This document shows, one piece after another, positions 32,641 to 54,605 of a stretch of 64,000 nt of DNA. Position numbers and translations under genes: made by a program. This DNA is from Blastocystis sp. Blastoise. Taxonomy: Eukaryota > Protista > Bigyra: Opalinata. Positions within the stretch are counted from its first letter, which is position 1. Every line of letters starts with the position of its first letter. The notes under the pieces are model-generated. The model was not told where the DNA came from, searched no databases, and saw only the letters and a list, made by a program, of their open reading frames with translations. The stretch covers positions 496,001 through 560,000 of the forward strand of contig JBBPEB010000021.1 of the NCBI GenBank assembly GCA_039096225.1, written 5' to 3'.

Positions 32641-32717
32641 TATTTATTGTATTAATTTAAAAAATAATTATATAACAAAACAAATAATTAATTATGAAAT
32701 AATAAAAGTTAAAATAA

Positions 32718-33755: not shown

Positions 33756-33808
33756 AACAAAACAATAAAATAATTATGGTTTATATGACAAATTAAAATA
33801 TAAAAAAA

Positions 33809-34846: not shown

Positions 34847-34915
34847 TTTATATGATTTTAATCAACAAAACAAAAAAATAATTAATGATAAGTTAAAGAT
34901 AAATAAATGATTTTA

Positions 34916-35587: not shown

Positions 35588-35683
35588 TTTTATTAAATAA
35601 ATTAATTATGTATTGATAAACAAAACAATATTTTTAAGATTAATATAAAGTTGATACAAATAAGAAAATATTATATAATTAAA

Positions 35684-36907: not shown

Positions 36908-37080
36908 TTTAATAATTATTGTTTATGTATTTTTTAACAAAATAAAAATAAAATAATAATAATATTTTATAATTATAAAATTATTTGAAATTCATAACAA
37001 AACAAATGATTGGAATATAGAATAGAATAGAATTAATTAAACAAGTTAACGTTAAGAATAGTAAGTAAGAAATATTAAAT

Positions 37081-38553
37081 TTAAATATCACGTACACTAC
37101 GTACAGCAATCATATGTAATGTATAAGGATGCTTCTCATTTAGTTCAGTATTAATATGTTTATAAATACCAGCATGAGAAGCAACGGCATAAGAAGCACC
37201 AGTGTCAGGTGTCCATATTTTAGTAGTTTCATTATATGTACATGTATATCCATCAGGAACAGTAGATGAATCAGCATGACCATATTCAATATCATGGACA
37301 TCTAGATTACAATCAAAATTCATTTCTATACCACTATCTGATTGGATATTCATTAATGCTTTAGTTGGAATAATATAAATAGGATGTTTAATCCATTCAT
37401 CATATTTAAGAATAGTTTCAGGATTTGAATTATCAGCCCATAAACAATATAGATTTTTATTAGGACAAGATAAACTAGCAGTTTCTTCATTATTGAAGAC
37501 ATGACCTTTAGTAGTAAGATTATGATAATACATTTGAGTAGGGAATTCAGTTTGAGGGAACATTTGAACATCACCAATCAAACAACTTTGATATTTAGGC
37601 CATACAGATGGACTTGCTACATTACTAATAGTTGTTGAACTATACCCATTTGTAAACCAGTATAATATATATTCAGGTATAAATGGTAAAGCTCTATTGA
37701 TATTGAAATGATCACTAGTTATTCTTGTATTTTGATAATCGACTTGAATACATGTAGGTATAGTTTTATATAATTCATTCGTTTGGAATTGAATATCTTT
37801 ATAAGTCATTAAATTCATAGTAGCTGATTCCAATTCAAATGTCTTAAACCATTTTTCATCAGTTAGATGTAACCATTGTGTTGATAATTTAGCACCACCA
37901 TTCTTGAAATAAATACTCATATTATTATCAATTAAGGATTCAATTGTACTCGTTCTAAATAGCATATTGAAATGTTTAGTTAATATTAAAGAATCTCCAT
38001 CAACACCTAAACCACTAATGAGATATAAAGGAATAGCAATATGAATAGATTCATTTGGATGTGCACGTATATAACGAATAGAATTCAATTCATAAGTATC
38101 TGCAGATAAATCTTCACCATACATAGATTTTTCTAAATCATTCTTACTGATATCTTTTAATAAAATCATTTTACGACCACGTGAAGCATGTGTACAGTTT
38201 TCTTCATATTTCAAAGCACGATCAGATCCATCAGGTAAAGTATAAACCATTTCAACATCAGTGGAATCAATAATAGAATAAATATTAGCTTTTTGAACTA
38301 ATTGATCCAAGAAATATTGACATAATTGATCATAGGTGAAACTAACAGAAGTACCTGTTTCATCTAAATAAACAGAAACTGGTCCAGCTTTATCTGTGAC
38401 AGTTGCCTTGACAGTAAGATCCAAATAGGATTGATTGAAATTGATATAAGTGTTATCCACATTAGTCCAATGATATTGAAAGATATAAGGACTTGATAGA
38501 ATATCAGTATCACTTTGAATAGGAATATTATCTTTAATTCTTAAGATTCTCAT
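37081..38553 (-). CDS. Major capsid protein paralog 2, 490 aa
   Basis: Colinear similarity to 35684-36907 (NIYSIID, KSMY, IPLxLIxGLG, PxTxFPT, PIYIxP), with insertions. Confidence 0.75.
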   Translation of the reverse strand: MRILRIKDNIPIQSDTDILSSPYIFQYHWTNVDNTYINFNQSYLDLTVKATVTDKAGPVSVYLDETGTSVSFTYDQLCQYFLDQLVQKANIYSIIDSTDVEMVYTLPDGSDRALKYEENCTHASRGRKMILLKDISKNDLEKSMYGEDLSADTYELNSIRYIRAHPNESIHIAIPLYLISGLGVDGDSLILTKHFNMLFRTSTIESLIDNNMSIYFKNGGAKLSTQWLHLTDEKWFKTFELESATMNLMTYKDIQFQTNELYKTIPTCIQVDYQNTRITSDHFNINRALPFIPEYILYWFTNGYSSTTISNVASPSVWPKYQSCLIGDVQMFPQTEFPTQMYYHNLTTKGHVFNNEETASLSCPNKNLYCLWADNSNPETILKYDEWIKHPIYIIPTKALMNIQSDSGIEMNFDCNLDVHDIEYGHADSSTVPDGYTCTYNETTKIWTPDTGASYAVASHAGIYKHINTELNEKHPYTLHMIAVRSVRDI

Positions 38554-38628
38554 TTTTTTTTTTAATAAAAAAATATTAATAAATAAAATAAAATTAATAT
38601 AAATTATTATTTAATAAATTAGAAAAAT

Positions 38629-41064
38629 ATGGAACTTGATGATGATAATTATGAAGAACAGACTTCATTAGAAGAGAAGGATACTCGTATTAAAACACAT
38701 GTAGTCCCTATTGATGTTCGTTGTATTGATAATCAATTCAATATACATTTATCGAATTCTATTGATATCACTAAAAATATCATTTCTTATATTGATCTTA
38801 ATTTAATTGGTAGTGAAAGTGTGCCTCTATTTGATACTTTCACAAAAACACAAATATTCAAATATATAAATACTCGTGTCAATGGTAATAGTTCCGTATA
38901 TACAATCACTTTAGATCAGAAAAATTATTCAATTCCACAATTATTAGAACTATGTCATTTTGATGTATGTGATAGACCAGTAATAAAAGATTCTCCTGAT
39001 ATTGATCCCACTGTCAAAATTAATGAAGCCCCAACAATAACCATTGATAGAGATGATTGGTATTGTGAAATTACAATTTATAATAAAAGACGTGGTTTTT
39101 ACTTTCCAAAAGGTACTTATACGGATATAGAGTTTTGGTGGATAGCTGTATGTTGTGTATCAGCTAAATGGGGTGATAAATTTAATCGTTTAATGATGAG
39201 ATATGATGATGATACTATAACCATATATCGACCTCAATTAACTTCTTATAATGTTCCTGTTACATCAACAGGAATCTATGAATTGAATGAATTCTTTACT
39301 GATGGTGTGAGTGATCATTCAAGTTATATTGTTCCAACACAAGGTTCTAATGGAATTATGAAATGTGTATTAGCTGATGAACATAAATTTTATTTCCAAT
39401 GGTCAAGTAATAATATACTCAGTTTAGAAAAACAATTATTCACTGGCTTATTTGAAGATTCAGAAACATTGACATATACTTCACTTCAAGAGGAAATTAC
39501 ATTAAATAGAATTAAAAGAACAGTCTTTGTGGAAGATGGATATAATACAATGATTGTTCGACAATTGAGTGGTTATGATGGTGTTCATGAAACTACATTC
39601 ACTGTTCCTCCTGGAAATTACACAGAAAACAAATTCTATGAATTATTAGAAAGTTCAATCAATAATACAATTTATACGGATTATTTAAGTATATCCAAAG
39701 ATACTCAGACTATGGACAATAAGGATGGATATATAATATATTTATCTTGTAAAGGTACTGATTCTACGTCATTCACATTTACAGCTACAGATATAGAGCA
39801 CTCCTTATTTAAGTATCGTGGTGCTCTACATAATATACGTCCTGATTTAGTTTATGATGAACAAGGATGTTTTGCTTGGTATGTATCTTATGGTAAACAA
39901 TTAATACCAGACAAAATAGCTGATTTGAATACACTTGATTTAGATGGTAATTATAAGTGTTATACTGATAGTTATCATATAGATTTCTCTCAAGCTCAAG
40001 AATTAGGTGAAATCTTAGGTTATAATAAATTAGGTCATGATGAAATTATTAATTATGGTATTCATAATATTGATAGTAGTCGTCCAAAAGGAATGTTAAT
40101 AGCTCAATCGAATATAGTAGATAATAGTCAGAATTCTTTATATTCATTCAATGTGAATAATTATAAAGGCAATAATGAATTTCATGATATTATGAATATT
40201 AATGTGTCTCCTTATTTGAATACAATACAAGATATTATTATACGATATACTGATAAAAATAAACAATATGTGAATTTCAATGATAATTGTATTTTAAGAG
40301 GATTCTTAGAATTCTCAGATACAGTCGATACGATTCAACCAAGTGAAACTATTAAGAAATTATGTTTGAATTGTCAAACAGCAGACACACAATTCTATGC
40401 TGAATATCCTACATTGAATATCCAAAATAAGATCTTAAAAGATATTATTATTCAAAATGATACAGATACAATCCAAGCAAATGCATCTAAATTATGTACT
40501 GGATATATAAATGGATCATATTATCCTACATTTAGTTTTCCTTTATCTGATAAATATGTTACTTATAGTAATATAAATTCTCCAATCACAATTGATCATA
40601 ATATAGATTTAAGATTTGATGAATTATTCAAAGGAAATATAATTTGTAATATATGTGAACCGAATGGTAGTGATATACGTTTCAAAGCTTATGATGAAGT
40701 ATATTGTGATTTTAGTACGAGTAAGAATTTAATTTATGAATTGAAGAAAACCAATGTGTATGGTTATCAATACTTAACGAATATACAAATTATATCAGTG
40801 TATGGTCAATCCACTGATTACTTATATCCTATTTCATTAAGATGTTTTACTAATGAATATGAGAATAATATTCATGTTATTGATACTACAAATCTACCTT
40901 ATTACTATTCGAATGGTATTAAATATGAAGGTATATCAAATAAGATCAATAAGAATGTTTATTATTGTAATCGTAAATTATTAAAGTTATTGCCTCATGA
41001 TAATATGTTCTTTATAACATGTGATTATCCTTGTGTTGTTTTATTAACTATCTCTTATATATAA
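38629..41064 (+). CDS. Large penton/spike-like protein, 811 aa
   Basis: Shares motifs with the 223-aa penton: LDQKNYS, FPKGTYT, VPPGNYT, ILG, LIAQSNIV and IIIRYTDKNKQYVNF. Extra beta-rich C-terminal region. Confidence 0.65.
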   Translation: MELDDDNYEEQTSLEEKDTRIKTHVVPIDVRCIDNQFNIHLSNSIDITKNIISYIDLNLIGSESVPLFDTFTKTQIFKYINTRVNGNSSVYTITLDQKNYSIPQLLELCHFDVCDRPVIKDSPDIDPTVKINEAPTITIDRDDWYCEITIYNKRRGFYFPKGTYTDIEFWWIAVCCVSAKWGDKFNRLMMRYDDDTITIYRPQLTSYNVPVTSTGIYELNEFFTDGVSDHSSYIVPTQGSNGIMKCVLADEHKFYFQWSSNNILSLEKQLFTGLFEDSETLTYTSLQEEITLNRIKRTVFVEDGYNTMIVRQLSGYDGVHETTFTVPPGNYTENKFYELLESSINNTIYTDYLSISKDTQTMDNKDGYIIYLSCKGTDSTSFTFTATDIEHSLFKYRGALHNIRPDLVYDEQGCFAWYVSYGKQLIPDKIADLNTLDLDGNYKCYTDSYHIDFSQAQELGEILGYNKLGHDEIINYGIHNIDSSRPKGMLIAQSNIVDNSQNSLYSFNVNNYKGNNEFHDIMNINVSPYLNTIQDIIIRYTDKNKQYVNFNDNCILRGFLEFSDTVDTIQPSETIKKLCLNCQTADTQFYAEYPTLNIQNKILKDIIIQNDTDTIQANASKLCTGYINGSYYPTFSFPLSDKYVTYSNINSPITIDHNIDLRFDELFKGNIICNICEPNGSDIRFKAYDEVYCDFSTSKNLIYELKKTNVYGYQYLTNIQIISVYGQSTDYLYPISLRCFTNEYENNIHVIDTTNLPYYYSNGIKYEGISNKINKNVYYCNRKLLKLLPHDNMFFITCDYPCVVLLTISYI

Positions 41065-41133
41065 ATATTTTAATTCATTTCATTTAAATTAAAAAATGTT
41101 TTGTTATATTATTCATTTAAAAATTATTAAAAA

Positions 41134-41556
41134 ATGGAGCCTAAATCTGTATCTGAATCCTTACATTCTTTATCAAGTACAAGTTCAACAAGTTCAGATA
41201 GTTCAACAACAACCACATTATCCGAAGAAGAAATAGAAAAGAAAAATACTTTATTAGAATTTATTATAAAAGCTATAAAATGTTTATTTGAGAAATCAAC
41301 TGAATTCTTTCAATTAATTGTTAAAAATATAGATATTCATTGTAATTGTTGTAATCCACAAACAAAGAAAGTCTATTATAAGACAATGAAAATACAACAA
41401 ACGATTATAGAAGAAGAAGTCAAACATATATCAGAAGTCTTGAATGAATTAGAAGAAATTGATTCTAATCAAAATGAATCAATACAAGAATTAGCTGTTC
41501 AATTAATGAAATTAAATATAAGTGTTGATTCTATTGTTCAATCTCTTCATTTATAA
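41134..41556 (+). CDS. Viral hypothetical protein, 140 aa (S/T-rich N-terminus, CxCC, coiled coil)
   Basis: Intact ORF followed by TTGTTTTGTT at 41591-41600. Confidence 0.75.
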   Translation: MEPKSVSESLHSLSSTSSTSSDSSTTTTLSEEEIEKKNTLLEFIIKAIKCLFEKSTEFFQLIVKNIDIHCNCCNPQTKKVYYKTMKIQQTIIEEEVKHISEVLNELEEIDSNQNESIQELAVQLMKLNISVDSIVQSLHL

Positions 41557-41635
41557 TTCTATGAAATGTTATAAAATATTAATAATAAATTTGTTTTGTT
41601 TATAAATAATTTAATTTTAACATTTAATACAAGTA

Positions 41636-43432
41636 ATGCAATCAACAGGTTATTCAGATAAAGATTGTGAAGAATTCTTTACAAATTGTATAGATCAATT
41701 ATTACATTGGAAGAAAATACAATTATCAACAAGTATAAATTGGAAGAAATGGATCAAAACAATATGTAAGAAATTTCGTAATGAAGAACGAATTCAAATA
41801 GATGATATGGAAGAACCATTCTTTTGTGTAGAAGTGTTAACAGATCCATTTCAATTTCAAAATGTTATGCAACATACACAAACAGAAGCTCCTGGACAAC
41901 AAGGTGGATTATCCAATACTACAGTAGCTAATTATATGCAAATGATTACATATATAATGAAGAATATATCTATTTGTACAGATGATGAAGATATCATTAA
42001 TTATAAAGCATTTACTCCACAAAATATAAAGAAATGGGAACATTTATGGGGTTCTTTACAAATTGATGCTACTTATTCAAGACATTATGAAATCACTCAG
42101 AAAATTATTAATTGTGAAGCTGATTGGGGAGAAATCATTAATATCACCAAAAAGAATTATTTAGAGAATCCTAATGATTTATATTATGTGAATAGTTATT
42201 TATTAGTTTTAACTTATGATACATTATGTGCTCGTAATGATTATAATGATTGTGTAATCTATACTCGTGGTCAACAAATTCCTTTATCCTTAAGAAGAAC
42301 AACCAATTATATTGATTTAAATACTTTGACTATTCATGTGAATGATACAAAGAATCGATTTGAAATTGGTAAGAATGAATATCCTACTTATCAATATTTA
42401 TCAGAAGAATATTTGAATGTCTTAGCTAGATCCTTACGTTTATTTCCAAGACATTATTTATTTGTTACTGAGAATGGTGGTAAAGTACGTGATTTGAAAT
42501 TTGGTGATGAATATATAAAACCCCATTTAGGCTGGATTTATAAAACACAACAGAATAATTCTTTAATTAATGGTTGTGATATTATAAGACATTTATTTGC
42601 TCAATATTATTATAGATTATCAAGAGAAGCACAATTCCAACATAATGATTCAGAACACGAATCTAAAGGTGTAGAACTCTTTGAAAATTCGATTATGAAG
42701 ATGTTACATAGTCAATCAACACATATGGAAAATTATATATCTCCTTATTTATCTTCTCATTCAACTAAATTGCAAGATTTAGATAATAAAACAAGAACAT
42801 TTCATATTGATATGAATAATATTACTTATACAAGAGAAATTAATCAATTGAATAAATTATTATTTTTATGTAAACGATTTAATGATCGTATAGAACAATA
42901 TGAAGAAGACTATGAAGATGTATTTGGTAAAGAGAATTTCAATATGAAATCAGAATCCATATTAAGTAGTCTAGAACAATATTCATCAGATAATGATACT
43001 ATAATGATTACATTAAGATATTATAAAGATCTATTAAAGCATCATTATCCAGATAAAACAGATTTAGAAAATGAATTACCTGTAGGATGTTCATTAGAAT
43101 CTGAAGAAGTTCCAGAGAATTCTAGAGATCGTTATAATCGTTTTATACGTAATAAACAATTATTACCTGATCATTTACATAATAATACAACGGATTCAGA
43201 ATTAACGAATACTCAAGCATCTCTTATGCAACAGAATACTCAAGATGAAAACTCTACACCTATAGTTATGAATAATTCAGATACTTATGCATTACGTAGT
43301 CTTTCTACTATGCCTCCTTTAGAACCTATTCATCGTGGTCATGGTTTATTGAAAAAACATAAAAGTAATGCATTCTTTAAAGTCAAAGTCCCTAAAAAAC
43401 ATTTTCATGGAATACAATTTAAATTTTATTAA
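41636..43432 (+). CDS. Tyrosine recombinase / integrase
   Basis: Catalytic residues in order: R (LCARND), K (NDTKN), xxxR-H (DIIRHLFA), H (MLHS) and Y (THMENY). N-terminal core-binding-like helix (LSNTTVANY). Confidence 0.8.
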   Translation: MQSTGYSDKDCEEFFTNCIDQLLHWKKIQLSTSINWKKWIKTICKKFRNEERIQIDDMEEPFFCVEVLTDPFQFQNVMQHTQTEAPGQQGGLSNTTVANYMQMITYIMKNISICTDDEDIINYKAFTPQNIKKWEHLWGSLQIDATYSRHYEITQKIINCEADWGEIINITKKNYLENPNDLYYVNSYLLVLTYDTLCARNDYNDCVIYTRGQQIPLSLRRTTNYIDLNTLTIHVNDTKNRFEIGKNEYPTYQYLSEEYLNVLARSLRLFPRHYLFVTENGGKVRDLKFGDEYIKPHLGWIYKTQQNNSLINGCDIIRHLFAQYYYRLSREAQFQHNDSEHESKGVELFENSIMKMLHSQSTHMENYISPYLSSHSTKLQDLDNKTRTFHIDMNNITYTREINQLNKLLFLCKRFNDRIEQYEEDYEDVFGKENFNMKSESILSSLEQYSSDNDTIMITLRYYKDLLKHHYPDKTDLENELPVGCSLESEEVPENSRDRYNRFIRNKQLLPDHLHNNTTDSELTNTQASLMQQNTQDENSTPIVMNNSDTYALRSLSTMPPLEPIHRGHGLLKKHKSNAFFKVKVPKKHFHGIQFKFY

Positions 43433-43552
43433 TTTTAAAACAAAACAACTTTTTATAGTAAAAAATAAATATATATTTAATTTGGTATAGCATATAAAGT
43501 ATTATCTATTAAAATTCGTTTTGTTGATGACGTATTATGATATTGATCTTCA

Positions 43553-46480
43553 CTATAAACAATTTCTTCTTTTTTTAGATAAACAATTGGATAAACAGAA
43601 TAAATCTGTATCTACACATTCATTATAAGTATTATCAATCATTAAACCACAAATACCAATAGCATTCCCTCCCTTATAAAAATTTGAAGTATGTTTTCTA
43701 TGAATATTCACAATATCTATAGAATTAAATGTATCTTTACTACTTAAACAACCAAATAAAGCATTTGTAAATTTATCTAAATCTTTCTTAATCGTAAATT
43801 GATTATTATTATTCACTTTCTTATAACTATTAAAAATATCTTCAATAGTAACTACATTCAAATAATAAGGATCTATAGTAATATGGTTATCAACAAAAGA
43901 TTTCAAATCATATCCTTCTGTACTACGATCAAAGAATCGTTTCTTACATTCACTTATATGATATTCATTATCTAATTCATGCATATCTAATTGCATACTA
44001 GAATAGAAATAATTACTTACTAGATAACTAAAGATAATTGAACGATTCTGATAGAATTTATCAGATAAAGTATAATCCATTTCATAATGATTTGGTTTCA
44101 ATCTCTTTTCTACTGTCTGTTTACGTTTCGGTAAATTATGATCTACATAATCTTCATATAAATTAGCATTACCAGGAGGGAAATAACGACAACATGATGG
44201 TAAGAAACAAACTCTTCTTTCAATAGGACCAGCATTCACAGCAGTAGGTTGGATATTACTTGTCATAAATAAAGTACCTGTGAAATGAACTTTTGTAAAT
44301 ATATTACTGAATAATTTACGAGCACTAGCACCTTCTTTCTTTTCTGCTATTTCTTTAAAGACTTTAGAAGAGAATGGATTAAATGTTTTCTTTCTACCAG
44401 TAACATCTTCTTCTATTAATTCATTCATATAATACATTGTTTTATTAGACATATCTACAATCTTAGGAGCTATAGATGTTTCTTCTAAATTATCTGGATT
44501 TACTATAATACATTGATTACTACCTACAATACGAGAAATTAAATCAGTTGTTATTGTTTTACCATTACTACCTGTACTACCATATAATATATAAGAAACT
44601 GTTTTCTGAGTATTGACATAGAAAGCAGTGGTTAGGATACGTAACATAATACTTTCATATTTCTTATCGAATTCACAATATCTTGCAATATGTTGTTCAA
44701 ATAATTGGATAATATCTTTCTGTTCATTATTAATATTCCAACTTACATTAAATTCAGTATCAATTAATAAATCTTCAAATACCATATCTTCTTTATGATA
44801 TGGTTGGATATAATATTGTCTAGGATCTTCTTCTGTAGATTCTTTTGGATATAAATAACCAAGTTGTGTATAGATAACACGTTCTTTATGAACCATATAC
44901 GTATCTAAATATTCTTTATAAGATTTACCATAAGTCTTCAAATAACGATTCAACCATTCTTTATAATGATATTCATTAGTAACAGAAGCAGACATTATTT
45001 TATCAACTATTTTTTGATGTTGTTCATTCTCTTTGGAATATAATCTTGATAATTTGAATTTCTCTACAATCGATTTCATAAATGTAGTTATTTTGGTTTC
45101 AAAAAAATTAATATCATAATTATTCTTACAACGTCTTAAGATATTATATTCATCAAATGTATATAAGATAAAATTATCTTTATCTAATATAATAGAAACA
45201 ATTTCATTAAATTCTAATAATTGAAATAACATAACTAATGTTTGTGAATCTACAAGATTAAAGGATTGAATACATTCTAAAATAGACATAAATATGAAAT
45301 CATTATCATCATCTTTATTAAATAATTTATTATCCATTAATATCTTCAAAATATAATTATTCGATAAATGAGTAGGATCAACTTGTATATGATTCCATGT
45401 AGATTCAATTACATCATCACTTCGATCATGACCATAACGTAATGAATAATTTTTAAATAATTCTAATCCTCTTGTTGTATTACAAATCTGTTTTGCTGCA
45501 CAACATAATTTATACCAAGTATTATGGGATTCAAAATAATTCATATCTTCAATAGAACCAATCAATAATAAATATCGTTCTAATAAAGCTTCTTTAGATG
45601 CTGTAGTATCCAATATAGTATCTGTAGAAATCAACATAGGAATATCTTTAATATCTTGTATAGAACATAATATAGTACGTGAACAATTATTTAATCTTGC
45701 ATAATAACGTTTATAACGTGAATATTGTTTTAATTTATAAAAGATAATAGGATTAATAATATCACTTATAATATCATCTTCATTCTTATAATTCAATAAT
45801 GTTTTGAAATAATAATGTTCATCGATTTCATCATCTATTTTCTTCCATGTTTTATTGGTATATTCTTCGTATAATTTATAAGTAGATGGAGAATTATCTT
45901 TACTACAACCAAGAAACATACAACCATTATTCTTTCTTGGTTTACCAATAACATTATAATCAATGAATTCTTTTATATCTAAATTATTCATTTTACATAA
46001 ATCAACCAATTTGGTATTCAGAATCATACTATTATATAAGAAAAATAAATAATCACCATTTACAAACCAATTTGTATATATGTGAATTCCCCATGAATAA
46101 TGTATTTCATTATGAACTGTCTTCTTATTCACTTCTTTCTTTGTATACAGAAGCGAAATAAATTCTTGATTATAATAATGAATACAATGATTACATATTT
46201 CTTCAATAAATTCATGAATAAATGAATCTGTTAGAAAAGAAAAATCATTTGATATTTGGTGATAATCTAAATCAAACCATAATCTTCTATAATTAGTTGA
46301 TGTATTACAAGGAGTACAATCAATATAATGTAGTAATTCTTTTGGATTTTGATAATTAGTAAATAGACTTTTATAAAATGGTAATGGATTTGGTATAATA
46401 ATTTCACTATGATTATCTTTTGAATTATCATGATTAAAGGAACCAAAAGTATAAACAAAATGAATTTGTGAATTTTCCAT
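43553..46480 (-). CDS. AEP primase + PriCT-2 + D5-like SF3 helicase, 975 aa from the first ATG
   Basis: AEP motifs LWFDLD, GIHIY and FID. PriCT-2-like HNTWYKL..GLELFKNYS..TWNHI. SF3 GSTGSNGKT, YYMNE, LFMTSN and IERR. The track start 46528 is TTG; the first ATG is 46480. Confidence 0.9.
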   Translation of the reverse strand: MENSQIHFVYTFGSFNHDNSKDNHSEIIIPNPLPFYKSLFTNYQNPKELLHYIDCTPCNTSTNYRRLWFDLDYHQISNDFSFLTDSFIHEFIEEICNHCIHYYNQEFISLLYTKKEVNKKTVHNEIHYSWGIHIYTNWFVNGDYLFFLYNSMILNTKLVDLCKMNNLDIKEFIDYNVIGKPRKNNGCMFLGCSKDNSPSTYKLYEEYTNKTWKKIDDEIDEHYYFKTLLNYKNEDDIISDIINPIIFYKLKQYSRYKRYYARLNNCSRTILCSIQDIKDIPMLISTDTILDTTASKEALLERYLLLIGSIEDMNYFESHNTWYKLCCAAKQICNTTRGLELFKNYSLRYGHDRSDDVIESTWNHIQVDPTHLSNNYILKILMDNKLFNKDDDNDFIFMSILECIQSFNLVDSQTLVMLFQLLEFNEIVSIILDKDNFILYTFDEYNILRRCKNNYDINFFETKITTFMKSIVEKFKLSRLYSKENEQHQKIVDKIMSASVTNEYHYKEWLNRYLKTYGKSYKEYLDTYMVHKERVIYTQLGYLYPKESTEEDPRQYYIQPYHKEDMVFEDLLIDTEFNVSWNINNEQKDIIQLFEQHIARYCEFDKKYESIMLRILTTAFYVNTQKTVSYILYGSTGSNGKTITTDLISRIVGSNQCIIVNPDNLEETSIAPKIVDMSNKTMYYMNELIEEDVTGRKKTFNPFSSKVFKEIAEKKEGASARKLFSNIFTKVHFTGTLFMTSNIQPTAVNAGPIERRVCFLPSCCRYFPPGNANLYEDYVDHNLPKRKQTVEKRLKPNHYEMDYTLSDKFYQNRSIIFSYLVSNYFYSSMQLDMHELDNEYHISECKKRFFDRSTEGYDLKSFVDNHITIDPYYLNVVTIEDIFNSYKKVNNNNQFTIKKDLDKFTNALFGCLSSKDTFNSIDIVNIHRKHTSNFYKGGNAIGICGLMIDNTYNECVDTDLFCLSNCLSKKRRNCL

Positions 46481-46566
46481 GATTATTTGACTTATAAATA
46501 ATGAAAATAAATATGGTATAAAATTCAAAACAAATAATATATTAAAGATTCTAGAAGTCAGTTTTG

Positions 46567-46604
46567 GAAGCTTCTAGAACATTCTAGAACATTCTAGAAC
46601 ATTC
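46567..46604. promoter_or_regulatory. Heat shock element array (8 units), proximal to the primase-helicase
   Basis: GAAgcTTCtaGAAcaTTCtaGAAcaTTCtaGAAcaTTC, plus an extra TTCtaGAA at 46549-46556. Confidence 0.8.
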
Positions 46605-46638
46605 TATAATAGTAAATATTACTTTATATTTTTAAATG

Positions 46639-46686
46639 TTCTAGAACCTTCTAGAACCTTCTAGAACCTTCTAGAACCTTCTAGAA
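46639..46686. promoter_or_regulatory. Heat shock element array (10 units), distal to the primase-helicase
   Basis: (TTCtaGAAcc)4 followed by TTCtaGAA. Confidence 0.8.
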
Positions 46687-46796
46687 CATCATTTTTATAC
46701 TTTAGTGTTTTAAATGTATATACAATAAACAAAACAATTTTCAATGATTTTTTACAAGTTTATAAGTAAAAATAGAAAAATAAACAAGAAAAATAA

Positions 46797-47420
46797 TTAA
46801 ATTTCAATTGGTTCTTGACTATTAATATATGTACATGAATGAGGCCATCCATTCTTATCATATAAAATACCATCCCAGAAATACATTTGTTTTGAAGGAT
46901 CTCTTTTAATCTTGTTAATACTCTTAGCATGAACAACTTCATAAGAATAAACTTTACCTTTTTCATCATAGAGAAATCCATCTTCCATATGGAATTTCAT
47001 AATATCAAAATCATCATCTTGAGAATTCGAATGTTCTTTAGAATCTTCAGAACATAAAATAGTAGTTCTATCACTTTCTAAAAGATCTTCAGTATTGATA
47101 ATATCTTGAATATCTTGTTCTTCATTAAGTTGTTGAGTATAAATATCAGCAGCGAATTCTTCATAATCTTCAAGACCTTTAATAACCGCGTTTATACGTT
47201 TTAAAGCTGATCTATAGTTTTCGACTTCGAAAGAAGCAAGACGTTCTTTAGATTTTGCAATACCCAATAGATTCTTTTCTCTATTCAATTGAGACTGATG
47301 TAAATCAATATCACGAAGAACATTCTTATGAACTTCAACAGCCTTCTTAGAATTCTTTAGAAGTTCCATACGAACAGTTTGAAGACATTTACGGGAATCA
47401 GCAGAAAGATTAAATTGCAT
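46797..47420 (-). CDS. Viral hypothetical coiled-coil protein, 207 aa from the first ATG
   Basis: Long heptad region, acidic middle and small beta-rich C-terminus. 3' motif at 46728-46737. Confidence 0.75.
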   Translation of the reverse strand: MQFNLSADSRKCLQTVRMELLKNSKKAVEVHKNVLRDIDLHQSQLNREKNLLGIAKSKERLASFEVENYRSALKRINAVIKGLEDYEEFAADIYTQQLNEEQDIQDIINTEDLLESDRTTILCSEDSKEHSNSQDDDFDIMKFHMEDGFLYDEKGKVYSYEVVHAKSINKIKRDPSKQMYFWDGILYDKNGWPHSCTYINSQEPIEI

Positions 47421-47531
47421 TATAATCGCGAATATCGTTACAGAGAGAAAATTTGTATTTATCAAAATGAAATAAATAATACATTTAAATGGAATATTAA
47501 ATATTCTAGGAGACAGTGTAGAATCTCTATG

Positions 47532-47705
47532 GAATGTTCTAGAAGGTTCATTTGATTGGCTAATTTTGTCGACTTAGCATTTAGTATTTGTGTTTCGATG
47601 ACGAACATAGTCGGCATCTGTAATCTGATTGGATAAAAAAATTAGTAAAACACAATTAGACGATGACGACGATGTGTCATACGAAATAAGTTATTTTATT
47701 GGCTT
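47532..47705. promoter_or_regulatory. Bidirectional promoter with an HSE (4 units) and three reverse CCAAT boxes
   Basis: GAAtgTTCtaGAAggTTC at 47532-47549. ATTGG at ~47555, ~47628 and ~47698, between divergent ATGs 47420 and 47819. Confidence 0.65.
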
Positions 47706-47818
47706 ATTTTCCAGCTGGAAGCAATAGGCTTTTGTTAGCAACTGAAATGAAGAACTGTACACTAAAAATAGTATATTTAATATATTGTATAAAAATACTT
47801 TTGAAGGTTTAAATAATC

Positions 47819-48346
47819 ATGGAAATTCCTGATAGTCTTTCTGCCAGTTTATCCCCTTTCGGTCAAGCCATGATATCCCCCTTGTTGAATCCATTTGAAA
47901 ATAGTGTTTCTGCAAATCCTATGGCTTTACCCAATGATAATGATTTCTGTTTTAATTCGCGTGACGAAATCATGTTTGAAGATCCACCTCAAGAAATTCA
48001 TCCAATCAATGATGTTTACGTATCTAAAAATCCAGATAGATATCATTCGGTTAACAATCAACCAATACAATTTCAAGATCAAGTAAATACAAATCCTAAT
48101 AAGCAAGCATTATTATTTACAAATGAGGAGTTAACAAATATATCCAGTCAATTCGAATCTTTATTTCAAACTATGGAAACGGCTGATAATATATTAAATA
48201 GTATTTATTGTACTGTTGATCATTTAAAAACAAAGATTGAAAGTCAGAAACAAGATTTAAAACAGATTCATGATGATTCTAAAGAAATTGTTTCATTATT
48301 ATCCGAATATTCTATTCCTTCTATGTCTGAAATATTTGATCATTAA
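47819..48346 (+). CDS. Viral hypothetical protein, 175 aa (acidic/disordered N-terminus, C-terminal coiled coil)
   Basis: Intact ORF followed by TTGTTTTGTT at 48369-48378. Confidence 0.8.
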   Translation: MEIPDSLSASLSPFGQAMISPLLNPFENSVSANPMALPNDNDFCFNSRDEIMFEDPPQEIHPINDVYVSKNPDRYHSVNNQPIQFQDQVNTNPNKQALLFTNEELTNISSQFESLFQTMETADNILNSIYCTVDHLKTKIESQKQDLKQIHDDSKEIVSLLSEYSIPSMSEIFDH

Positions 48347-48436
48347 TTTATTTATTTAATTAATTATTTTGTTTTGTTTATTTTTTTTTTAAATTAATTA
48401 CACAAAGTTTAAATGGAGAATAGAATAGTTTCAAAT

Positions 48437-48544
48437 AGAATTCTTGAATGGTCTAATGGATCTATTAAAGAAATATGTAACCACAGTATCATGGTTCGAT
48501 TCCGTTAAAATGTTTCCATTAGATTATTCAAGTGTTCTTTTTTT
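48437..48544 (+). ncRNA. Putative RNA polymerase III small RNA, VA-RNA/EBER-like architecture
   Basis: A box TGGTCTAATGG 48449-48459, B box GGTTCGATTCC 48493-48503, terminal stem 48437-48460/48515-48538 with G-U pairs, T7 terminator 48538-48544. Confidence 0.72.
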
Positions 48545-48590
48545 CTAGAACCTTCTCGAACATTCTAGAACCTTCTCGAACCTTCTCGAA
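48543..48590. promoter_or_regulatory. Heat shock element array (10 units) upstream of the SSB gene
   Basis: TTCtaGAAccTTCtcGAAcaTTCtaGAAccTTCtcGAAccTTCtcGAA, ending 76 bp before ATG 48667. Confidence 0.8.
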
Positions 48591-48666
48591 CATTGATTCA
48601 TTTGAAAAGAATATCTAAATATATTAGTATTAAAATACTTATATTTTTACTAAATACTTAACTAAA

Positions 48667-49260
48667 ATGTCTTCAACTGAATTTAAGAAACCTGCTATTC
48701 TTGATACTTCTAACTTTAATTTACAATGGGATGACACCAAAGAAAATGCTGTTCTTTTAAATAATAATCATCGTGTATGTATTTCTACTGATGCTACACC
48801 ATGTTTATTTGGTTATATTGTTACACGTGATAAATGGACTTTATTAACAATTGAAGATGATAATCAAGTATTCTTAACTGCTTATAAAGAACTTTATCGT
48901 AAATTATGTGAATTATGTCCTGATGGTGATATTGTTAATTTTGTACGTATGGATAATGGTAAATATAAGATTACAATTAAAGTACCTATTAATGCATCGA
49001 AGAATGTTACTATTGATATTACTGATAAAAGAGATAAGAAGATTAATATCGGTAAAGATCCTAAGTTAACTTACGAAGAAATACGTGAAAAGTATATTCC
49101 ACCAAATACGTTATGTAAAGTATTATTTACAATACATGGTATTCATCGTTATAATAACAAGTATTATATTGGTTTATATGCTCGTTCTATTAAAGTCATC
49201 GATAAATCTACGAAGAATACTAATAGTAATGATACTATTATTGATTTAACTAATTTATAA
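48667..49260 (+). CDS. Probable OB-fold single-stranded DNA-binding protein
   Basis: C-terminal IPPNTLCKVLFTIHGIHRYNNKYYIGLYARSIKV plus a short acidic tail resembles T7 gp2.5/NCLDV-type SSBs. Replication-gene context. Confidence 0.6.
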   Translation: MSSTEFKKPAILDTSNFNLQWDDTKENAVLLNNNHRVCISTDATPCLFGYIVTRDKWTLLTIEDDNQVFLTAYKELYRKLCELCPDGDIVNFVRMDNGKYKITIKVPINASKNVTIDITDKRDKKINIGKDPKLTYEEIREKYIPPNTLCKVLFTIHGIHRYNNKYYIGLYARSIKVIDKSTKNTNSNDTIIDLTNL

Positions 49261-49335
49261 ATTTTTAATGTTAAATTTATTTTTTATTAATATATTTGTT
49301 TTGTTTATAAATAATTTTATAATTGAAATAAAAAA

Positions 49336-50964
49336 ATGCAAAGTTGTATATTAGGAATGCCAAGTCCTGGTACTTTTGGTATGAATTTAATTTCAACTGG
49401 AAAAGAATATAGGCGATATAATACACAACCATTACATAAAATGGATCAATATAATCCAATATTTCATGAAATAGGTCCAAATTCATCTATGCCTGTGTCT
49501 ACTTTAGAAAGTAAAGAAATACATGATGGTAAAGAAGATGATTATGTAGATCGTTCTAAAACATTTGGTAAAGATGCTGTTCCACAAGGAAATGGTGCTT
49601 TAATTCGTGCTAGAGCAGCAGGTAAAGGTGTAATGAAAGCAGCTGGTCCAGAAGAAGATAAAATAGATGGTGAAGATCGTCAATATAAAGTATTAAATCC
49701 TTGTAAACCAAGACGTAAATCTGGTAGAGGAATTATTCCAAATAAATCAGAAATCAATAAATTAGAGAATAATCAAGGTTCTGGTATTGGTGATGCAATT
49801 AAAAATAAAGTAAAAGATATGTATCAACGAAATGTATTAGATATAAGAGATGCTATTGTAGATAAAAAAGCTAATAGAAAAGCTCGTGATGCATTAGCTA
49901 TTTTAGCTCAATATGTTGGTGATGGTCATCATGATCTTGATGATGAATTCAAAAGATTCTATGAACATAAAATTAAACGTGGTGGAAAGATTCCTATATC
50001 TGTTGCTTCAGCAATTATGAATGCAATTAAAAATAAGAAAATGATTAAGAATCCAAAATTAAGAAGAATGTTAAGACCTTCAATTATACCAAAATATATA
50101 GATTTAGATTCAGCTCAAAGTGGTGATGGTATATTAAGAGTTAAAAGAGGTGGTGGATTCTGGGATGGAGTTATGAATTATGCACCAGCTCTTTTAGGTG
50201 TAGTTGATAAAGGTATGGATTCTTTTGCTAAAGGTAGAAAAGCTTATTATGATACACATTTGGCACAACAGTCAAGTGAATTAAATGATATGGAATTTGA
50301 AATGGAAAAATTAAAACGTCAACAAGCATTAAATGAAATGAAAAAACAAATAGGTTCAGGAAATACTATAAATAAGATGTTTGAAGGATATTATGATGTA
50401 GCTGATGAAATGCAAGATGCTCTTGATGAAGATGATAGATTACATCCACAACCCGTTGTTCAACCTCCACCACCTCCACAACAACAAGTTGTTAGACCTC
50501 CTCAACCTCAACCTCCTCAACCTTATAAGCCAATGTCTCGTGATGAACAAAGTTATTATTATAAGATTTATGGTTTCCCTCAAAATGATAAGGAGAAAGT
50601 CGATAGAAAATGGAAAGAAGATGAAAGGGATAAACGAATAGCTGCAAGAAGAGCTAAACGTAGAGGTTATGGTGGTCGAGTTAAATTAAGTAAAGAAGAA
50701 TTCTTAGAACGAATGAGAAGAGGAAAAGAAGCTAAAAAGAAAAAAGGTGGTGATTTACCTCCATTAGTAACAGCTTATACAGATTTTGTAATACCTGCAC
50801 AAGTAGAACAAAGGAAACGTAAAGTAGTTAAAAATGATTTAAAACAATTACAAATTATAAAACAGAAAATGGATAATAATGAAATATTAGATAGAGGTGA
50901 GCAAATGTTTTGGAAAGAAAAGAAGTATATGTTATCAAAAAACTCAGGGGAGGGGATCTGGTAA
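49336..50964 (+). CDS. Basic core polyprotein precursor, 542 aa, with many GxG/GG cleavage sites
   Basis: At least 10 motifs (QGNGA, AGKGV, SGRGI, QGSGI, RGGK, SGDGI, RGGGF, IGSGN, YGGR, KGGD, SGEGI). K/R-rich with a P/Q-rich linker. Confidence 0.8.
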   Translation: MQSCILGMPSPGTFGMNLISTGKEYRRYNTQPLHKMDQYNPIFHEIGPNSSMPVSTLESKEIHDGKEDDYVDRSKTFGKDAVPQGNGALIRARAAGKGVMKAAGPEEDKIDGEDRQYKVLNPCKPRRKSGRGIIPNKSEINKLENNQGSGIGDAIKNKVKDMYQRNVLDIRDAIVDKKANRKARDALAILAQYVGDGHHDLDDEFKRFYEHKIKRGGKIPISVASAIMNAIKNKKMIKNPKLRRMLRPSIIPKYIDLDSAQSGDGILRVKRGGGFWDGVMNYAPALLGVVDKGMDSFAKGRKAYYDTHLAQQSSELNDMEFEMEKLKRQQALNEMKKQIGSGNTINKMFEGYYDVADEMQDALDEDDRLHPQPVVQPPPPPQQQVVRPPQPQPPQPYKPMSRDEQSYYYKIYGFPQNDKEKVDRKWKEDERDKRIAARRAKRRGYGGRVKLSKEEFLERMRRGKEAKKKKGGDLPPLVTAYTDFVIPAQVEQRKRKVVKNDLKQLQIIKQKMDNNEILDRGEQMFWKEKKYMLSKNSGEGIW

Positions 50965-51058
50965 AGAGTAAAGATGAAAAACTTATTCAAAATTCAATGA
51001 ATTGTGATAATCCTATTATATCTGATAAAACTCGTCATGTTACTCCTAGATCCCCTGA
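50937..51058 (+). promoter_or_regulatory. -1 programmed ribosomal frameshift signal
   Basis: In-phase slippery heptamer A AAA AAC 50937-50943, a 7-nt spacer, then aggggatct 50951-50959 complementary to agatcccct 51048-51056. The downstream ORF is in the -1 frame. Confidence 0.72.
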
Positions 51059-51530
51059 TAATTTCAAACAAACTCTATCTCAATATTGTAATATACCAAA
51101 TTCTCTAATATCTCAATTATATAATTATGCTTATTTAAATAAACCTACCTCATCTGTTGCTTGTGATCGTGCTGAAAATGTTATGAAACAATTAAATAAA
51201 ACAAATTCTCAATCTTATAATTATTATAATAGTTATGATGATTTTGAACAAAATATAGATCAAGATCAAACTAAATTTAATATGATCTTCCATGAAAGTC
51301 CTAGTGATCCTTATAATGGTCATTTTGAAGCTGTTATTTATAATGGTAATAAAAATATAGAACACTATTCATCATTAGGAAATAAACCTACTTTTTCAAA
51401 ATCATTTATTCAAAATCATAATATTCAATATAATCCTATTCAACACCAAAAAACTACAAGTAATGCAAATGGTTGCTTTTATTATTCTTTACTTTATTTA
51501 CTTTCTAATGGAAATCTTATGCCTTGTTAA
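50943..51530 (+). CDS. Adenain/Ulp1-like (clan CE) maturation cysteine protease, probably made as a frameshift fusion
   Basis: NGHFEAV (His), IEHYSSLG (the usual FDS/FEP-x-G strand), QHQ (oxyanion Gln) and NGCFYYSLLYL (Cys). The track start 50910 is TTG; the first ATG is 50997. Confidence 0.75.
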   Translation, partial: LRGGDLVKSKDEKLIQNSMNCDNPIISDKTRHVTPRSPDNFKQTLSQYCNIPNSLISQLYNYAYLNKPTSSVACDRAENVMKQLNKTNSQSYNYYNSYDDFEQNIDQDQTKFNMIFHESPSDPYNGHFEAVIYNGNKNIEHYSSLGNKPTFSKSFIQNHNIQYNPIQHQKTTSNANGCFYYSLLYLLSNGNLMPC

Positions 51531-51534
51531 AACA

Positions 51535-51552
51535 TTCTAGAATATTCTAGAA
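51535..51552. promoter_or_regulatory. Heat shock element (4 units)
   Basis: TTCtaGAAtaTTCtaGAA upstream of ATG 51617. Confidence 0.7.
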
Positions 51553-51616
51553 TCTTTAATTTATTATATTAATATTTTGTATAATTAATTTGTTTTGTTT
51601 ATTATTTAATACTATA

Positions 51617-51772
51617 ATGACAAAGAAACGATTTGGCAATTACTACTTAGATCGTAGTGCAGAAATTTTAGAGAATGTAAATGAAATACTGTCAGTTATT
51701 GAAATTGTTCTTATTATTATATATATTTTACTTTACTTTTATATGTCCAAGAAACGTTCTAGAACATTCTAG
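51617..51772 (+). CDS. 51-aa single-pass membrane protein
   Basis: MTKKRFGNYYLDRSAEILENVNE-ILSVIEIVLIIIYILLYFYM-SKKRSRTF. HSE upstream and 3' motif at 51843-51852. Confidence 0.55.
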   Translation: MTKKRFGNYYLDRSAEILENVNEILSVIEIVLIIIYILLYFYMSKKRSRTF

Positions 51773-51779
51773 AACATTC
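51757..51779. promoter_or_regulatory. Heat shock element (5 units)
   Basis: TTCtaGAAcaTTCtaGAAcaTTC upstream of ATG 51875. Confidence 0.7.
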
Positions 51780-51874
51780 ATTTTGAACTGGCTCTATTTG
51801 TAGAATCTTTAATTTATTATATTAGTATTTTATATAATTAATTTGTTTTGTTTAATCATTGGTTAATTTAAATA

Positions 51875-52009
51875 ATGAACAAGAAATATCTTAGTTATTC
51901 TTATTTTTGTCGTGTGATGAAGAATCTAAAAGAAGAAGGAATTAAATCTAAAAAGAATGAAATAGCAAATCTATTAGAACAATTTCTTATATATAAAAGG
52001 GATAAGTAA
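51875..52009 (+). CDS. 44-aa basic protein (below ORF-track cutoff)
   Basis: MNKKYLSYSYFCRVMKNLKEEGIKSKKNEIANLLEQFLIYKRDK, with an HSE upstream. Confidence 0.5.
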   Translation: MNKKYLSYSYFCRVMKNLKEEGIKSKKNEIANLLEQFLIYKRDK

Positions 52010-54605
52010 GCACAAAATTGTACTGATATAAATGGACCGATTACTTTTTTGTGTTACGTATCTATGTTACACTGATAACAGAGTAAGATACTAAATGAAA
52101 AACGTATTCTGACGCGCTTTTAAAATTTTCAAAAATTCCACGTCTAAGGGCCTAAAACGGTCAGACAAAAAAAAAATTAACGGAAATGCCCCAAATAATT
52201 GGCTAAAATTCAAAATTAAAATTTGTATCCAATAAACATATTTCGTACATAAAATTCCTATTTATTTTTCATTTTCTCAGAAATTTTTTCATTTTTTACA
52301 TTTTTCTACTTAAAAATTTCTTTTTATATTTTGTAAAATTTATTTTTTATAAATTTCATTTTTAAGTTATATTTTTCTTTATGATGTACTTTATATTTGT
52401 CATTAAATATTAATATAATTTATTTTAAATGCATAACATTTCTCGCCACATGTATAAACGATTTTTAAACTTTAAAAAGACAATTAGACAAGAATCCTTT
52501 TTTTAAGAGACTTTAATTGATTGAGATTAACTTATATACATAAAATAACCTGAGTAATGATAATATATAAAGCTTTTAAAAAAATTGATCCACAAAGTAT
52601 TGAGATATCGGACACATTCTCTTTTGACTCCTTTGAATTTTAATGAAAACTATCTGGATCATCATGATAACTCATGAAACCATCCTAAAAGTCATTAAAA
52701 CCTGTTTTTGACATGTTGAAAAATTGACAAAAAACTTCAATCGCGCGTTCTGTCAACATTTTTTATTTTATTAATTTTTAAACGTTACAGGATTTATCTT
52801 ATGAGTTTATATTCATAAATTATTTGAACACATTTTTAAAATAAAAAGGTCGAAGAGATATCGAAATCATTTCACTCTTAATAAAGAAATTTTGACTTAA
52901 TATTTGTAGTTTAGATAAAATTCGCCACTCATTGAACCCATCAGGTTTCTTTTAAGACAAGAATGAGTGGATATATGTTTGGTTGACCCTCATAAAATCA
53001 AATTCTGATTTTATATATGAATACAGTGACCTCTACCATACACAAATATATCATTATTGCATGTTTATGACAACAAAGTTGGTGTATCGGCAGATTTCGA
53101 CCCCATTAATTTCGACTTATGACTTTATATTTGGTGTAAGGATGCCCAATAAGATACATTATGATATTTTATGTCTTTAAAGGCTTTTTAAAAAAGGTCA
53201 CAAAAAGTTAATTGCGACTTTGTACCAAAAAAAGTCGTCCTAACACACTTTTTAAAAGTCATATTAATAGTTATTATACTATTACATAAATATATAAAGT
53301 CAAAATATAAAATATCGTTGGGTCTCGGTGTCAAAAATGAAAAAGAAATTTTGCGTTTTCTCAAAAATTTTATTTTTGATGTTTCAACTAAGGTCAATTT
53401 CGACCATTATTATTATGTTTTTATTATTTATTTTTGTCATATTTAATACTATATGTGTCTATCTTATAAAATATATGAAAACTTTATAATATTATATTAT
53501 ATTAAAAGTTAAAATAAGATAAAAAAAAAGAGGTCTTGACAGAATTATCTACATTATTTTTTAAGTCAAACACATGAAGATTATGGACTTAATTCATAAT
53601 TAATATTATATTTCTACATAATAATATTATAAATGTTTTATTATTATGCTAATTTTTATAAAATAATACTTTTTGCAAACTGATATAGATGTAATTGTTT
53701 TACAATCTTAATTAAAAAGGTTCAAATTTTTTTATAGTGATCAATAATCTTATTAATCTCTGTTTGAAACACATAAGAAGATGAGCTAACAATAAAAATG
53801 AAAAAGAATATTTTAAAACTTTCAGTATTTTTCTTTTCTTTTCTTTTTTTTATTGTACTGTATTTAGAAATAGATTTAAATACATTTAGCAAGTCATTTC
53901 ATGAACAGAATTAAAAGCGCCAATTGTAGAATGTCTAATTAATGAATTATTAACTGATTGAAAGAATGATTGCCTAATTGTGAACAAAGAAACTTTAGCT
54001 GATTTTAGAGTGATATAAGAAAGGGTTACTTAAAACTACTATGCTATTTCTACGTTCAACATATTAATATATTGGTAACAACCAAATCATTCTTTATTTT
54101 AATAATTCCTTCTGTAAGTTTATTTTCATTTTTGTCTTTATCGTGTTTTTATTAATTAATTTATATATGTATAGAGAGTAGATGATAAATATAATAAATT
54201 ATATTTGGTAATGATACAATGTAAATGGGTAAACTAATGATACAGGGGATAATGTATAACTTTTTTATTAGGTATGCTATTACTCATCTTAAGAATTGAC
54301 TGTTACAACTATGCTATCCAAAGAAAGAAAAGAAAGAAAAGAAATGTAGCTGGAAGTTATAAATAAATGGTTGGTTATTATGAAAAAAATGATATGAAGA
54401 TTCCGTTTTTAAAAGTTCACCATTCATTTTTTGATATGTAAATTCACCACAAAATATCTTTGATGTCATGTATATATTTATATTATAATATATTATTTCT
54501 TTTATTATGTATATCTTTTTGATTTATTAAACCATTTGTTTTAATATACCTTTTATATATATAGAAGGTGCTTTTTGCTAAATCTTTCAGTATTGTTTAA
54601 GTACT

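What the first reader, a model, noticed from the sequence alone, without database searches (positions are those of the whole stretch)
48437..48544. VA-RNA-like Pol III hairpin RNA gene inside the virus
Seen: A box TGGTCTAATGG and B box GGTTCGATTCC start 44 nt apart (tRNA spacing), but there is no cloverleaf. Instead 48437-48460 pairs with 48515-48538 (agaat-cttgaatggtctaatgga / tccattagattattcaag-gttct) with three G-U wobbles. There is an apical aacca/tggtt stem, and the stem ends in a T7 run. G-U pairs point to RNA-level structure. Known: adenovirus VA RNAs and EBV EBERs have an internal A/B promoter, a terminal stem and an oligo-U end, and VA RNA antagonises PKR and saturates Dicer/exportin-5. 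Adenoviruses are thought to derive from Polinton-like ancestors. Inference: a ~105-nt decoy or pre-miRNA-like RNA. The TFIIIC site could also insulate the adjacent HSE array.
Basis: partly seen in the sequence, partly recalled or inferred. Interest (0 to 1): 0.85.

Follow-up and report, generated by a model that had tools for sequence, protein, structure and literature searches.

The report
Gut-protist virus hairpin RNA gene
A virus-like element integrated in a gut protist (likely Blastocystis) carries a 108-base hairpin with the start and stop signals of RNA polymerase III, so it likely makes a small RNA that would be cut by, and tie up, the host's RNA-silencing enzymes, although no such RNA has yet been seen.

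Summary
Window 48437-48544 has a 23-pair terminal stem (z -7.1), an A box at +13, a B box 44 nt further on, no internal T4 and a T7 run at the stem's end. It is the only A+B box pair in the window. It lies between two genes of a Polinton-like element (double-jelly-roll capsid fold; best named homologs from Blastocystis) and is neither a tRNA nor an Rfam family member. The layout matches adenovirus VA RNA, but it is not one: 108 versus about 160 nt, 29% GC, no GGGU-ACCC, unstructured middle. The closest named host strain has Pol III, Piwi, PAZ and RNase III domains, but no RdRP or Exportin-5 C-terminal domain. Best reading (about 0.45): a convergent Pol III hairpin RNA that is a Dicer/Argonaute substrate and decoy; that it is a Pol III gene at all, about 0.7. 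Not shown: transcription, homologs, covariation, targets. The insulator idea has no support. This scan noted similar Pol III hairpins earlier in animal Polintons (four unchecked notes); three literature searches found none described for Polinton-like viruses or virophages.

The parts
48437..48544 (+). Candidate Pol III type-2 gene for a hairpin RNA of about 105 nt
   Evidence: Fold z -7.08; only A+B pair in the window; no internal T4; transcription untested
48437..48460 (+). 5' arm of the terminal stem; predicted start at A48437, which follows a pyrimidine
   Evidence: the start site is inferred
48449..48459 (+). A box, at +13 inside the 5' arm
   Evidence: 8-20 nt is the usual distance from the start (PMC4267658 passage)
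48479..48496 (+). Predicted 5-bp apical stem with 8-nt loop; takes up the first 4 nt of the B box
   Evidence: pair probability 0.93-0.99; inner region not above shuffles
48493..48503 (+). B box, intragenic, 44 nt after the A box
   Evidence: only strict B box in the window; 0 of 500 shuffles
48515..48538 (+). 3' arm of the terminal stem
48538..48544 (+). T7 run, predicted Pol III terminator
   Evidence: one of 8 T>=7 runs on the + strand of the element; a T>=5 run starts within 2 nt of a given position 1.5% of the time
48543..48592 (.). Heat-shock-element-like array (nGAAnnTTCn repeats) abutting the terminator, ahead of ORF197
   Evidence: HSF binding untested; the HSE motif is recalled
48370..48378 (+). 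TGTTTTGTT gene-end motif that likely closes the ORF175 mRNA upstream of the hairpin
   Evidence: 15 copies in the element, 14 of them just 3' of a listed ORF on its sense strand; 3 in 41 kb of flank; resembles the Blastocystis poly(A) motif TGTTTGTT (PMC5608401 passages)
47819..48346 (+). Upstream viral ORF, 175 aa, function not identified
   Evidence: one homolog cluster of 16 sequences, 98% identical, named Blastocystis sp. Blastoise
48667..49260 (+). Downstream viral ORF, 197 aa, possibly a single-stranded-DNA-binding protein
   Evidence: Atlas look-alikes at 0.94-0.95 in Nucleocytoviricota clusters, DUF5871 15-18% and DUF2738 10-13% of members, recognition score below the tool's line, so a lead only; the SSB label for DUF2738 is recalled; one contig of run X1 covers 48664-49231
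35684..36907 (-). Major capsid protein, double jelly-roll; fixes the element as Polinton-like/virophage-like
   Evidence: AlphaFold model pLDDT 71; best Foldseek hit Sputnik capsid 3j26, E 5.5e-12; 87 homologs
29300..52300 (.). Approximate extent of the integrated Polinton-like element (ends not determined)
   Evidence: ORF-dense, higher-GC block; ATPase-like and primase-like ORFs; no terminal inverted repeat found

Best explanation
This is a 108-base hairpin with an internal A box, B box and T7 run, lying between two genes of an integrated Polinton-like virus, and it is likely a Pol III gene whose predicted RNA of about 105 nt would be cut by the host's Dicer-like enzyme and act mainly as a decoy for RNA silencing. 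Steps: (shown) boxes, stem, terminator and intergenic position. (Inferred) TFIIIC and TFIIIB recruit Pol III, which starts near A48437 and stops in the T run, giving a 5'-triphosphate RNA with a 23-bp closing stem and a short 3' U tail. (Inferred, by analogy to adenovirus mivaRNAs) Dicer cuts about 22 bp from the stem base, and the precursor and products, made from up to about 19 element copies, occupy a small Dicer/Argonaute system that lacks RdRP amplification, which would shield viral mRNAs when the element is induced. It arose convergently and is not a VA RNA homolog.
For: Stem z -7.08, the longest non-HSE stem in the element. Only A+B pair in 64 kb; strict pair in 0 of 2000 shuffles. A box at +13, T7 exactly at the stem end, no internal T4. 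Lies 3' of the motif that ends ORF175 and 5' of the HSE array and ORF197, so it is probably outside both mRNAs. Same box placement as VA RNA, whose terminal stem Dicer cuts into 21-23-nt RNAs (PMC7589676 passages). Closest named strain (column Rus-B, also called Blastoise): Piwi 2, PAZ 3, RNase III 2, dsRBD 1, RdRP 0, La 2, with Pol III subunits, Brf1, the TFIIIB B'' subunit and TFIIIC tauA domains present (PMC10690189 supplement file 7 rows). The stem length equals one Dicer product. Neither arm has an antisense site in the window better than shuffles (57, 13 and 62 of 100 shuffles as good), which fits a decoy better than a guide against the virus's own genes. The capsid cluster was seen on 19 contigs.
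Against: No transcript was seen. No homolog was retrieved, so conservation and covariation are untested. The B-block-binding TFIIIC domain (IPR007309) is 0 in the closest named strain and in 7 of 8 Blastocystis strains; it is also 0 in Cafeteria, so it may be a detection failure. The Exportin-5 C-terminal domain is 0 in all 8 strains. Whether the RNase III proteins are Dicers, and whether Blastocystis RNAi is antiviral, is unknown to me. A loose A+B pair arises in 16.6% of shuffles, and 44% of 101-nt windows lack T4. The G-U evidence has p = 1/8. Host mRNA targets could not be searched, as no genome was held.
Confidence: 0.45

Rival explanations
1. Pol III pre-miRNA: the same transcript is diced, but one arm is a true guide that silences a host mRNA or another mobile element, like bovine leukaemia virus Pol III miRNAs.
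For: Near-perfect 23-bp stem with the A box in the 5' arm, as in BLV pre-miRNAs (PMC4267658 passages); 7 of the 11 weak Rfam hits are miRNA precursor models, all far below their gathering scores, so shape only; Piwi and PAZ domains in the host genus.
Against: No target in the 64-kb window above shuffles. The 5' arm is constrained by the A box. In BLV the B box lies beyond the terminator; here it is inside a 54-nt middle part.
Confidence: 0.18
2. Pol III RNA that decoys something other than Dicer: La, exportin-t, a stress eIF2-alpha kinase, or the heat-shock/Pol II machinery as SINE B2 RNA does (B2 biology recalled).
For: La and Exportin-T domains are present in the closest named strain; the gene abuts an HSE-like array; a T-arm-like fold of the B box is possible at 4 kcal/mol above the optimum.
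Against: The inner region has no significant structure; there is no cloverleaf; the only strong feature is a Dicer-length stem.
Confidence: 0.13
3. DNA-level element: the boxes bind TFIIIC as a tDNA-like barrier or nucleosome-free site next to the HSE array, and any RNA is incidental.
For: The B box lies about 40 nt from a 50-nt HSE-like array; an earlier unchecked scan note read similar Polinton units this way (e1-8072744).
Against: Only 1 of 7 HSE arrays has a B box within 150 nt; a barrier needs neither a 23-bp stem nor a terminator in register; DNA folding is weak and equal on both strands (-15.1 and -14.9).
Confidence: 0.12
4. Functionless relic: a captured host tRNA or tRNA-derived SINE that decayed, with a local inverted duplication of its 5' end.
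For: Exact tRNA spacing (33 nt between the boxes, as in 39 of 208 tRNAs carrying the same boxes); a 4-bp T-stem remnant is possible.
Against: Outside the boxes identity to those 208 mostly prokaryotic or phage tRNAs averages 15 and peaks at 24 of 52 nt; both boxes are intact while the acceptor, D and anticodon arms are gone, which points to selection on the promoter. Host tRNAs and SINEs were not available for comparison.
Confidence: 0.1
5. Chance coincidence in AT-rich DNA, or a stem derived from palindromic HSE repeats.
For: HSE arrays form stems as long or stronger; loose box pairs are common in shuffles.
Against: The arms are not HSE repeats apart from one TTCnnGAA unit; rough joint chance about 1e-5.
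Confidence: 0.02

Closest known systems
Adenovirus VA RNA I/II and their mivaRNAs (PMC7589676, passages read)
   Same: Intragenic box A in the terminal stem, box B in the apical stem, oligo-U end, terminal stem of Dicer-product length; carried by a virus with a double-jelly-roll capsid.
   Different: 108 versus about 160 nt; 29% GC; no GGGU-ACCC central domain; 5-bp instead of a long stable apical stem; no Rfam VA match; host has no detected Exportin-5 C-terminal domain and, from recall, no PKR.
Bovine leukaemia virus Pol III pre-miRNAs (PMC4267658, passages read); foamy virus Pol III miRNAs (PMC3993851, search listing only)
   Same: Compact type-2 Pol III gene whose primary transcript is the hairpin, A box in the 5' arm 10-20 nt from the start, poly-T at the hairpin's 3' end.
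   Different: BLV B boxes lie beyond the terminator; here the B box is inside a 54-nt middle part. A DNA virus-like element of a protist, a single gene, no target known.
EBV EBERs, vault RNAs, MHV68 TMERs, tRNA-derived SINEs (recalled, not read)
   Same: A/B-box Pol III small RNAs, several with paired ends.
   Different: No Rfam match at E up to 10; no cloverleaf as in TMERs; 'vault' has 0 rows in the host domain table.
MELD/Polinton-like viruses of Blastocystis hominis (PMC8502044, passages read)
   Same: Mid-size DNA virus elements in the same host genus with divergent virion proteins.
   Different: Those carry PolB and integrase genes; none was identified here (primase-like ORF; weak tyrosine-recombinase lead). 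That paper has 0 mentions of VA RNA or polymerase III.

Membership tests
Adenovirus VA RNA | Intragenic box A in terminal stem and box B in apical stem | tested here: met
   feature from PMC7589676
Adenovirus VA RNA | Oligo-U Pol III terminator at the 3' end | tested here: met
   T7 at 48538-48544
Adenovirus VA RNA | GGGU-ACCC tetranucleotide stem in a central domain | tested here: not met
   neither tetranucleotide is present; inner region not above shuffles
Adenovirus VA RNA | About 160 nt with a long stable apical stem; Rfam family match | tested here: not met
   108 nt, 5-bp apical stem; no VA hit among 11 matches at E up to 10
Adenovirus VA RNA | Pol III transcription, PKR binding, Dicer cleavage | not testable with these tools
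   only contigs were available, no raw reads
BLV-type Pol III pre-miRNA | A box in the 5' arm and terminator at the hairpin's end | tested here: met
BLV-type Pol III pre-miRNA | B box downstream of the terminator | tested here: not met
   the B box is intragenic
BLV-type Pol III pre-miRNA | Discrete ~22-nt products with targets | tested here: inconclusive
   no target in the window above shuffles; host transcriptome and small-RNA reads not available
tRNA gene | Cloverleaf with acceptor, D, anticodon and T arms | tested here: not met
   ARAGORN 0; no Rfam tRNA hit; forced T-arm costs 4 kcal/mol
tRNA-derived SINE | Dispersed host copies, tail, target-site duplication | not testable with these tools
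   no genome held; single copy in the window
Polinton-like virus / virophage (the carrier) | Double-jelly-roll major capsid protein | tested here: met
Polinton-like virus / virophage (the carrier) | Packaging ATPase and replication gene | tested here: inconclusive
   P-loop ATPase-like ORF (PHROG terminase large subunit E 1.2e-10) and primase-like ORF (E 2.3e-9); not assigned to the A32 or D5 families by a call

The most novel reading that the evidence does not exclude
Polinton-like viruses of protists encode their own Pol III hairpin RNAs as suppressors of host RNA silencing: a VA-RNA-type counter-defence outside animals that arose repeatedly across the Polinton-adenovirus lineage, here coupled to the heat-shock-driven reactivation of a multicopy provirus in the commonest gut eukaryote genus.
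Probability: 0.3. Interest if true: 0.8.

Novelty: new variant of a known kind. Interest (0 to 1): 0.52.

Why it matters
If transcribed, it would extend viral Pol III hairpin RNAs, so far studied in viruses of vertebrates, to an endogenous Polinton-like virus of a stramenopile. It would give a direct handle on whether Blastocystis's small RdRP-less Dicer/Argonaute system is antiviral, and show that the VA-RNA layout can arise by convergence without PKR. It would also be a natural, compact Pol III hairpin cassette for a protist with few genetic tools. The host genus grows in culture and the element is multicopy, so the test is cheap.

Tried and rejected
Homolog hunts all failed, so covariation could not be counted. 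The capsid alignment found no relative among 158 viral and 34 prokaryote-genome candidate stretches, the ATPase none among 10. The arm-pair pattern gave 15 viral loci, 0 with a B box among the matches printed; the 3' arm gave 30 prokaryote loci, 0 with the boxes; the HSE pattern gave 1 unrelated locus. Expression: of 4 runs laid on 48392-49250, 1 contig of X1 covered the downstream ORF from about 11 nt before its ATG, and none covered the hairpin. Giant-virus/virophage 'hairpin rule' mRNA end (recalled): rejected, since the loop is 54 nt, other genes lack such stems and genes end with TGTTTTGTT. DNA cruciform or origin: weak symmetric DNA fold. Upstream TTTAAA at about -28 and CAA at -5: seen but uninformative in AT-rich DNA. 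Bacterial promoter and terminator scan: not applicable. PDB sequence search of the 975-aa ORF: 0 hits. Earlier-finding look-ups by sequence and relatives: nothing. Literature: 0 papers for Polinton-like + polymerase III + non-coding RNA, 0 for virophage + RNA polymerase III + B box, 2 off-topic listings for Polinton + virophage + tRNA genes + small RNA; searches for Blastocystis RNAi gave no paper on the topic.

Full report
Observation. The sequence at 48437-48544 is as described. It folds at -34.2 kcal/mol, z -7.08, with 0 of 200 shuffles as stable. The terminal stem has 23 pairs, three of them G-U, and one U-U mismatch; 21 of the 23 pairs have probability 0.99 or more, the other two 0.75 and 0.93. 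Of 26 ungapped stems of 17 or more pairs in the 23-kb element it is the longest, tied only by a heat-shock-element palindrome. By energy alone, the HSE arrays and two GC-rich hairpins near the left end score as well or better. The A box starts at 48449 (+13) and the B box at 48493. This is the only A+B pair in the window; a strict B box appeared in 0 of 500 and a strict pair in 0 of 2000 shuffles, but a loose pair in 16.6%. The T7 run starts at the last paired base and there is no earlier T4. A rough independence estimate for boxes and terminator falling in register on any long stem is 1e-5. The wobble argument is weak (p = 1/8), and the inner 54 nt, apical stem included, fold no better than shuffles.

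Carrier and host. The hairpin lies in a gene-dense block of about 23 kb in an AT-rich eukaryotic window. ORF 35684-36907 folds as a double jelly-roll, with Sputnik's capsid as best match. An ATPase-like and a primase-like ORF are present, and a recombinase lead is weak. The best named homologs of the capsid (93%), ORF175 (98%) and ORF197 (91% over 66% of its length) are from Blastocystis sp. Blastoise, so the host is inferred to be Blastocystis. The capsid cluster was seen on 19 contigs, in line with an earlier unchecked note of about 20 copies. No terminal inverted repeats were found.

Position. TGTTTTGTT occurs 15 times in the element, 14 of them just 3' of a listed ORF on its sense strand, against 3 in 41 kb of flank. 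It resembles the Blastocystis polyadenylation motif (PMC5608401 passages). One copy at 48370 closes ORF175; the HSE-like array and ORF197 follow the terminator. The hairpin is therefore probably in neither mRNA (inferred). One contig of run X1 covers ORF197 from about 11 nt before its ATG; contigs cannot show starts, and no run informs on the hairpin.

What it is not. Not a tRNA; outside the boxes it matches 208 tRNAs that share them at 15 of 52 nt on average. Not an Rfam family: 11 weak hits, 7 to miRNA precursors, all far below gathering scores. Not a VA RNA: of the conserved elements listed in PMC7589676 (passages) it has box A in the terminal stem, box B in the apical stem and the U tract, but lacks GGGU-ACCC, the length and the long apical stem. 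It differs from BLV pre-miRNA genes, whose B box lies beyond the terminator (PMC4267658 passages).

Host machinery. In the InterPro table of PMC10690189 (supplement file 7, matching rows read; strain name), the closest named strain has Piwi 2, PAZ 3, RNase III 2, dsRBD 1, La 2, Pol III subunits, Brf1, the TFIIIB B'' subunit and TFIIIC tauA domains. It has RdRP 0 and Exportin-5 C-terminal domain 0, as do all 8 strains. The B-block-binding TFIIIC domain is detected in only 1 of 8 strains and not in Cafeteria; this counts against the reading unless it is a detection failure. There are no RIG-I or oligoadenylate rows; PKR was not directly testable and its restriction to vertebrates is recalled. 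The main text has 0 hits for RNAi and tRNA and does not describe these viruses under 'virus' or 'viral'.

Mechanism. Shown: boxes, stem, terminator, position. Inferred: Pol III makes a triphosphorylated RNA of about 105 nt with a 23-bp closing stem and U tail (about 0.7). Inferred by analogy: Dicer cuts the stem as it does the VA terminal stem, and precursor and products titrate a small, unamplified silencing system (0.45 overall). Neither arm has an antisense site in the window beyond shuffles, which argues against self-regulation of viral genes; host targets could not be searched. Rivals: guide for a host mRNA (0.18), decoy for another RNA-binding protein (0.13), DNA-level TFIIIC site (0.12; 1 of 7 HSE arrays has a B box nearby), relic (0.10), chance (0.02).

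Limits.

Novelty. Viral Pol III hairpin RNAs are a known kind. Three searches found no report for Polinton-like viruses or virophages (the library lacks most subscription papers). This scan holds four unchecked notes of A/B-box hairpins in animal Polintons, one of which prefers a DNA-level role; they are leads, not support. Verdict: a real and well-formed candidate gene, a new variant of a known kind, function untested; interest 0.52.

Noticed in passing
window 30527-51852 (15 sites): TGTTTTGTT follows 14 of the 16 viral ORFs of 140 aa or more on the sense strand. It is a one-base-longer form of the polyadenylation motif of human-associated Blastocystis, yet PMC10690189 reports no such enrichment in tortoise-associated strains, the lineage of the closest named homologs. 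The virus may keep an ancestral or foreign 3'-end signal.
   Followed up: partly
window 29410-29510: GC-rich 101-nt hairpin (-48.5 kcal/mol), strong on both strands, at the element's apparent left end; candidate origin or attachment site.
   Followed up: no
window 30015-30075: Second GC-rich hairpin (-23.1 kcal/mol) in the non-coding left end.
   Followed up: no
   Followed up: partly
window 37020 and 48418: GAATAGAATAG direct repeats lie 20 nt upstream of the hairpin and in the gap before the capsid gene; a third copy lies in the host flank at 16582.
   Followed up: no
   Followed up: no
window 50997-51530: 177-aa ORF with His and Cys motifs that recall an adenain-type maturation protease (by eye; no Pfam or PHROG support).
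   Followed up: no
window 59108-63889: Intact 1593-aa Helitron Rep-helicase ORF in the right flank.
   Followed up: no
window 26667-28027 and 54795-56400: A degenerate repeat of about 244 nt period left of the element and an AT-rich repeat array of about 80 nt period right of it.
   Followed up: no
proteins P0003-P0088: More than 80 capsid homologs at 55-63% identity in metagenome assemblies show that this element family is widespread; three further capsid clusters at 48-51% are named from the same Blastocystis strain.
   Followed up: no
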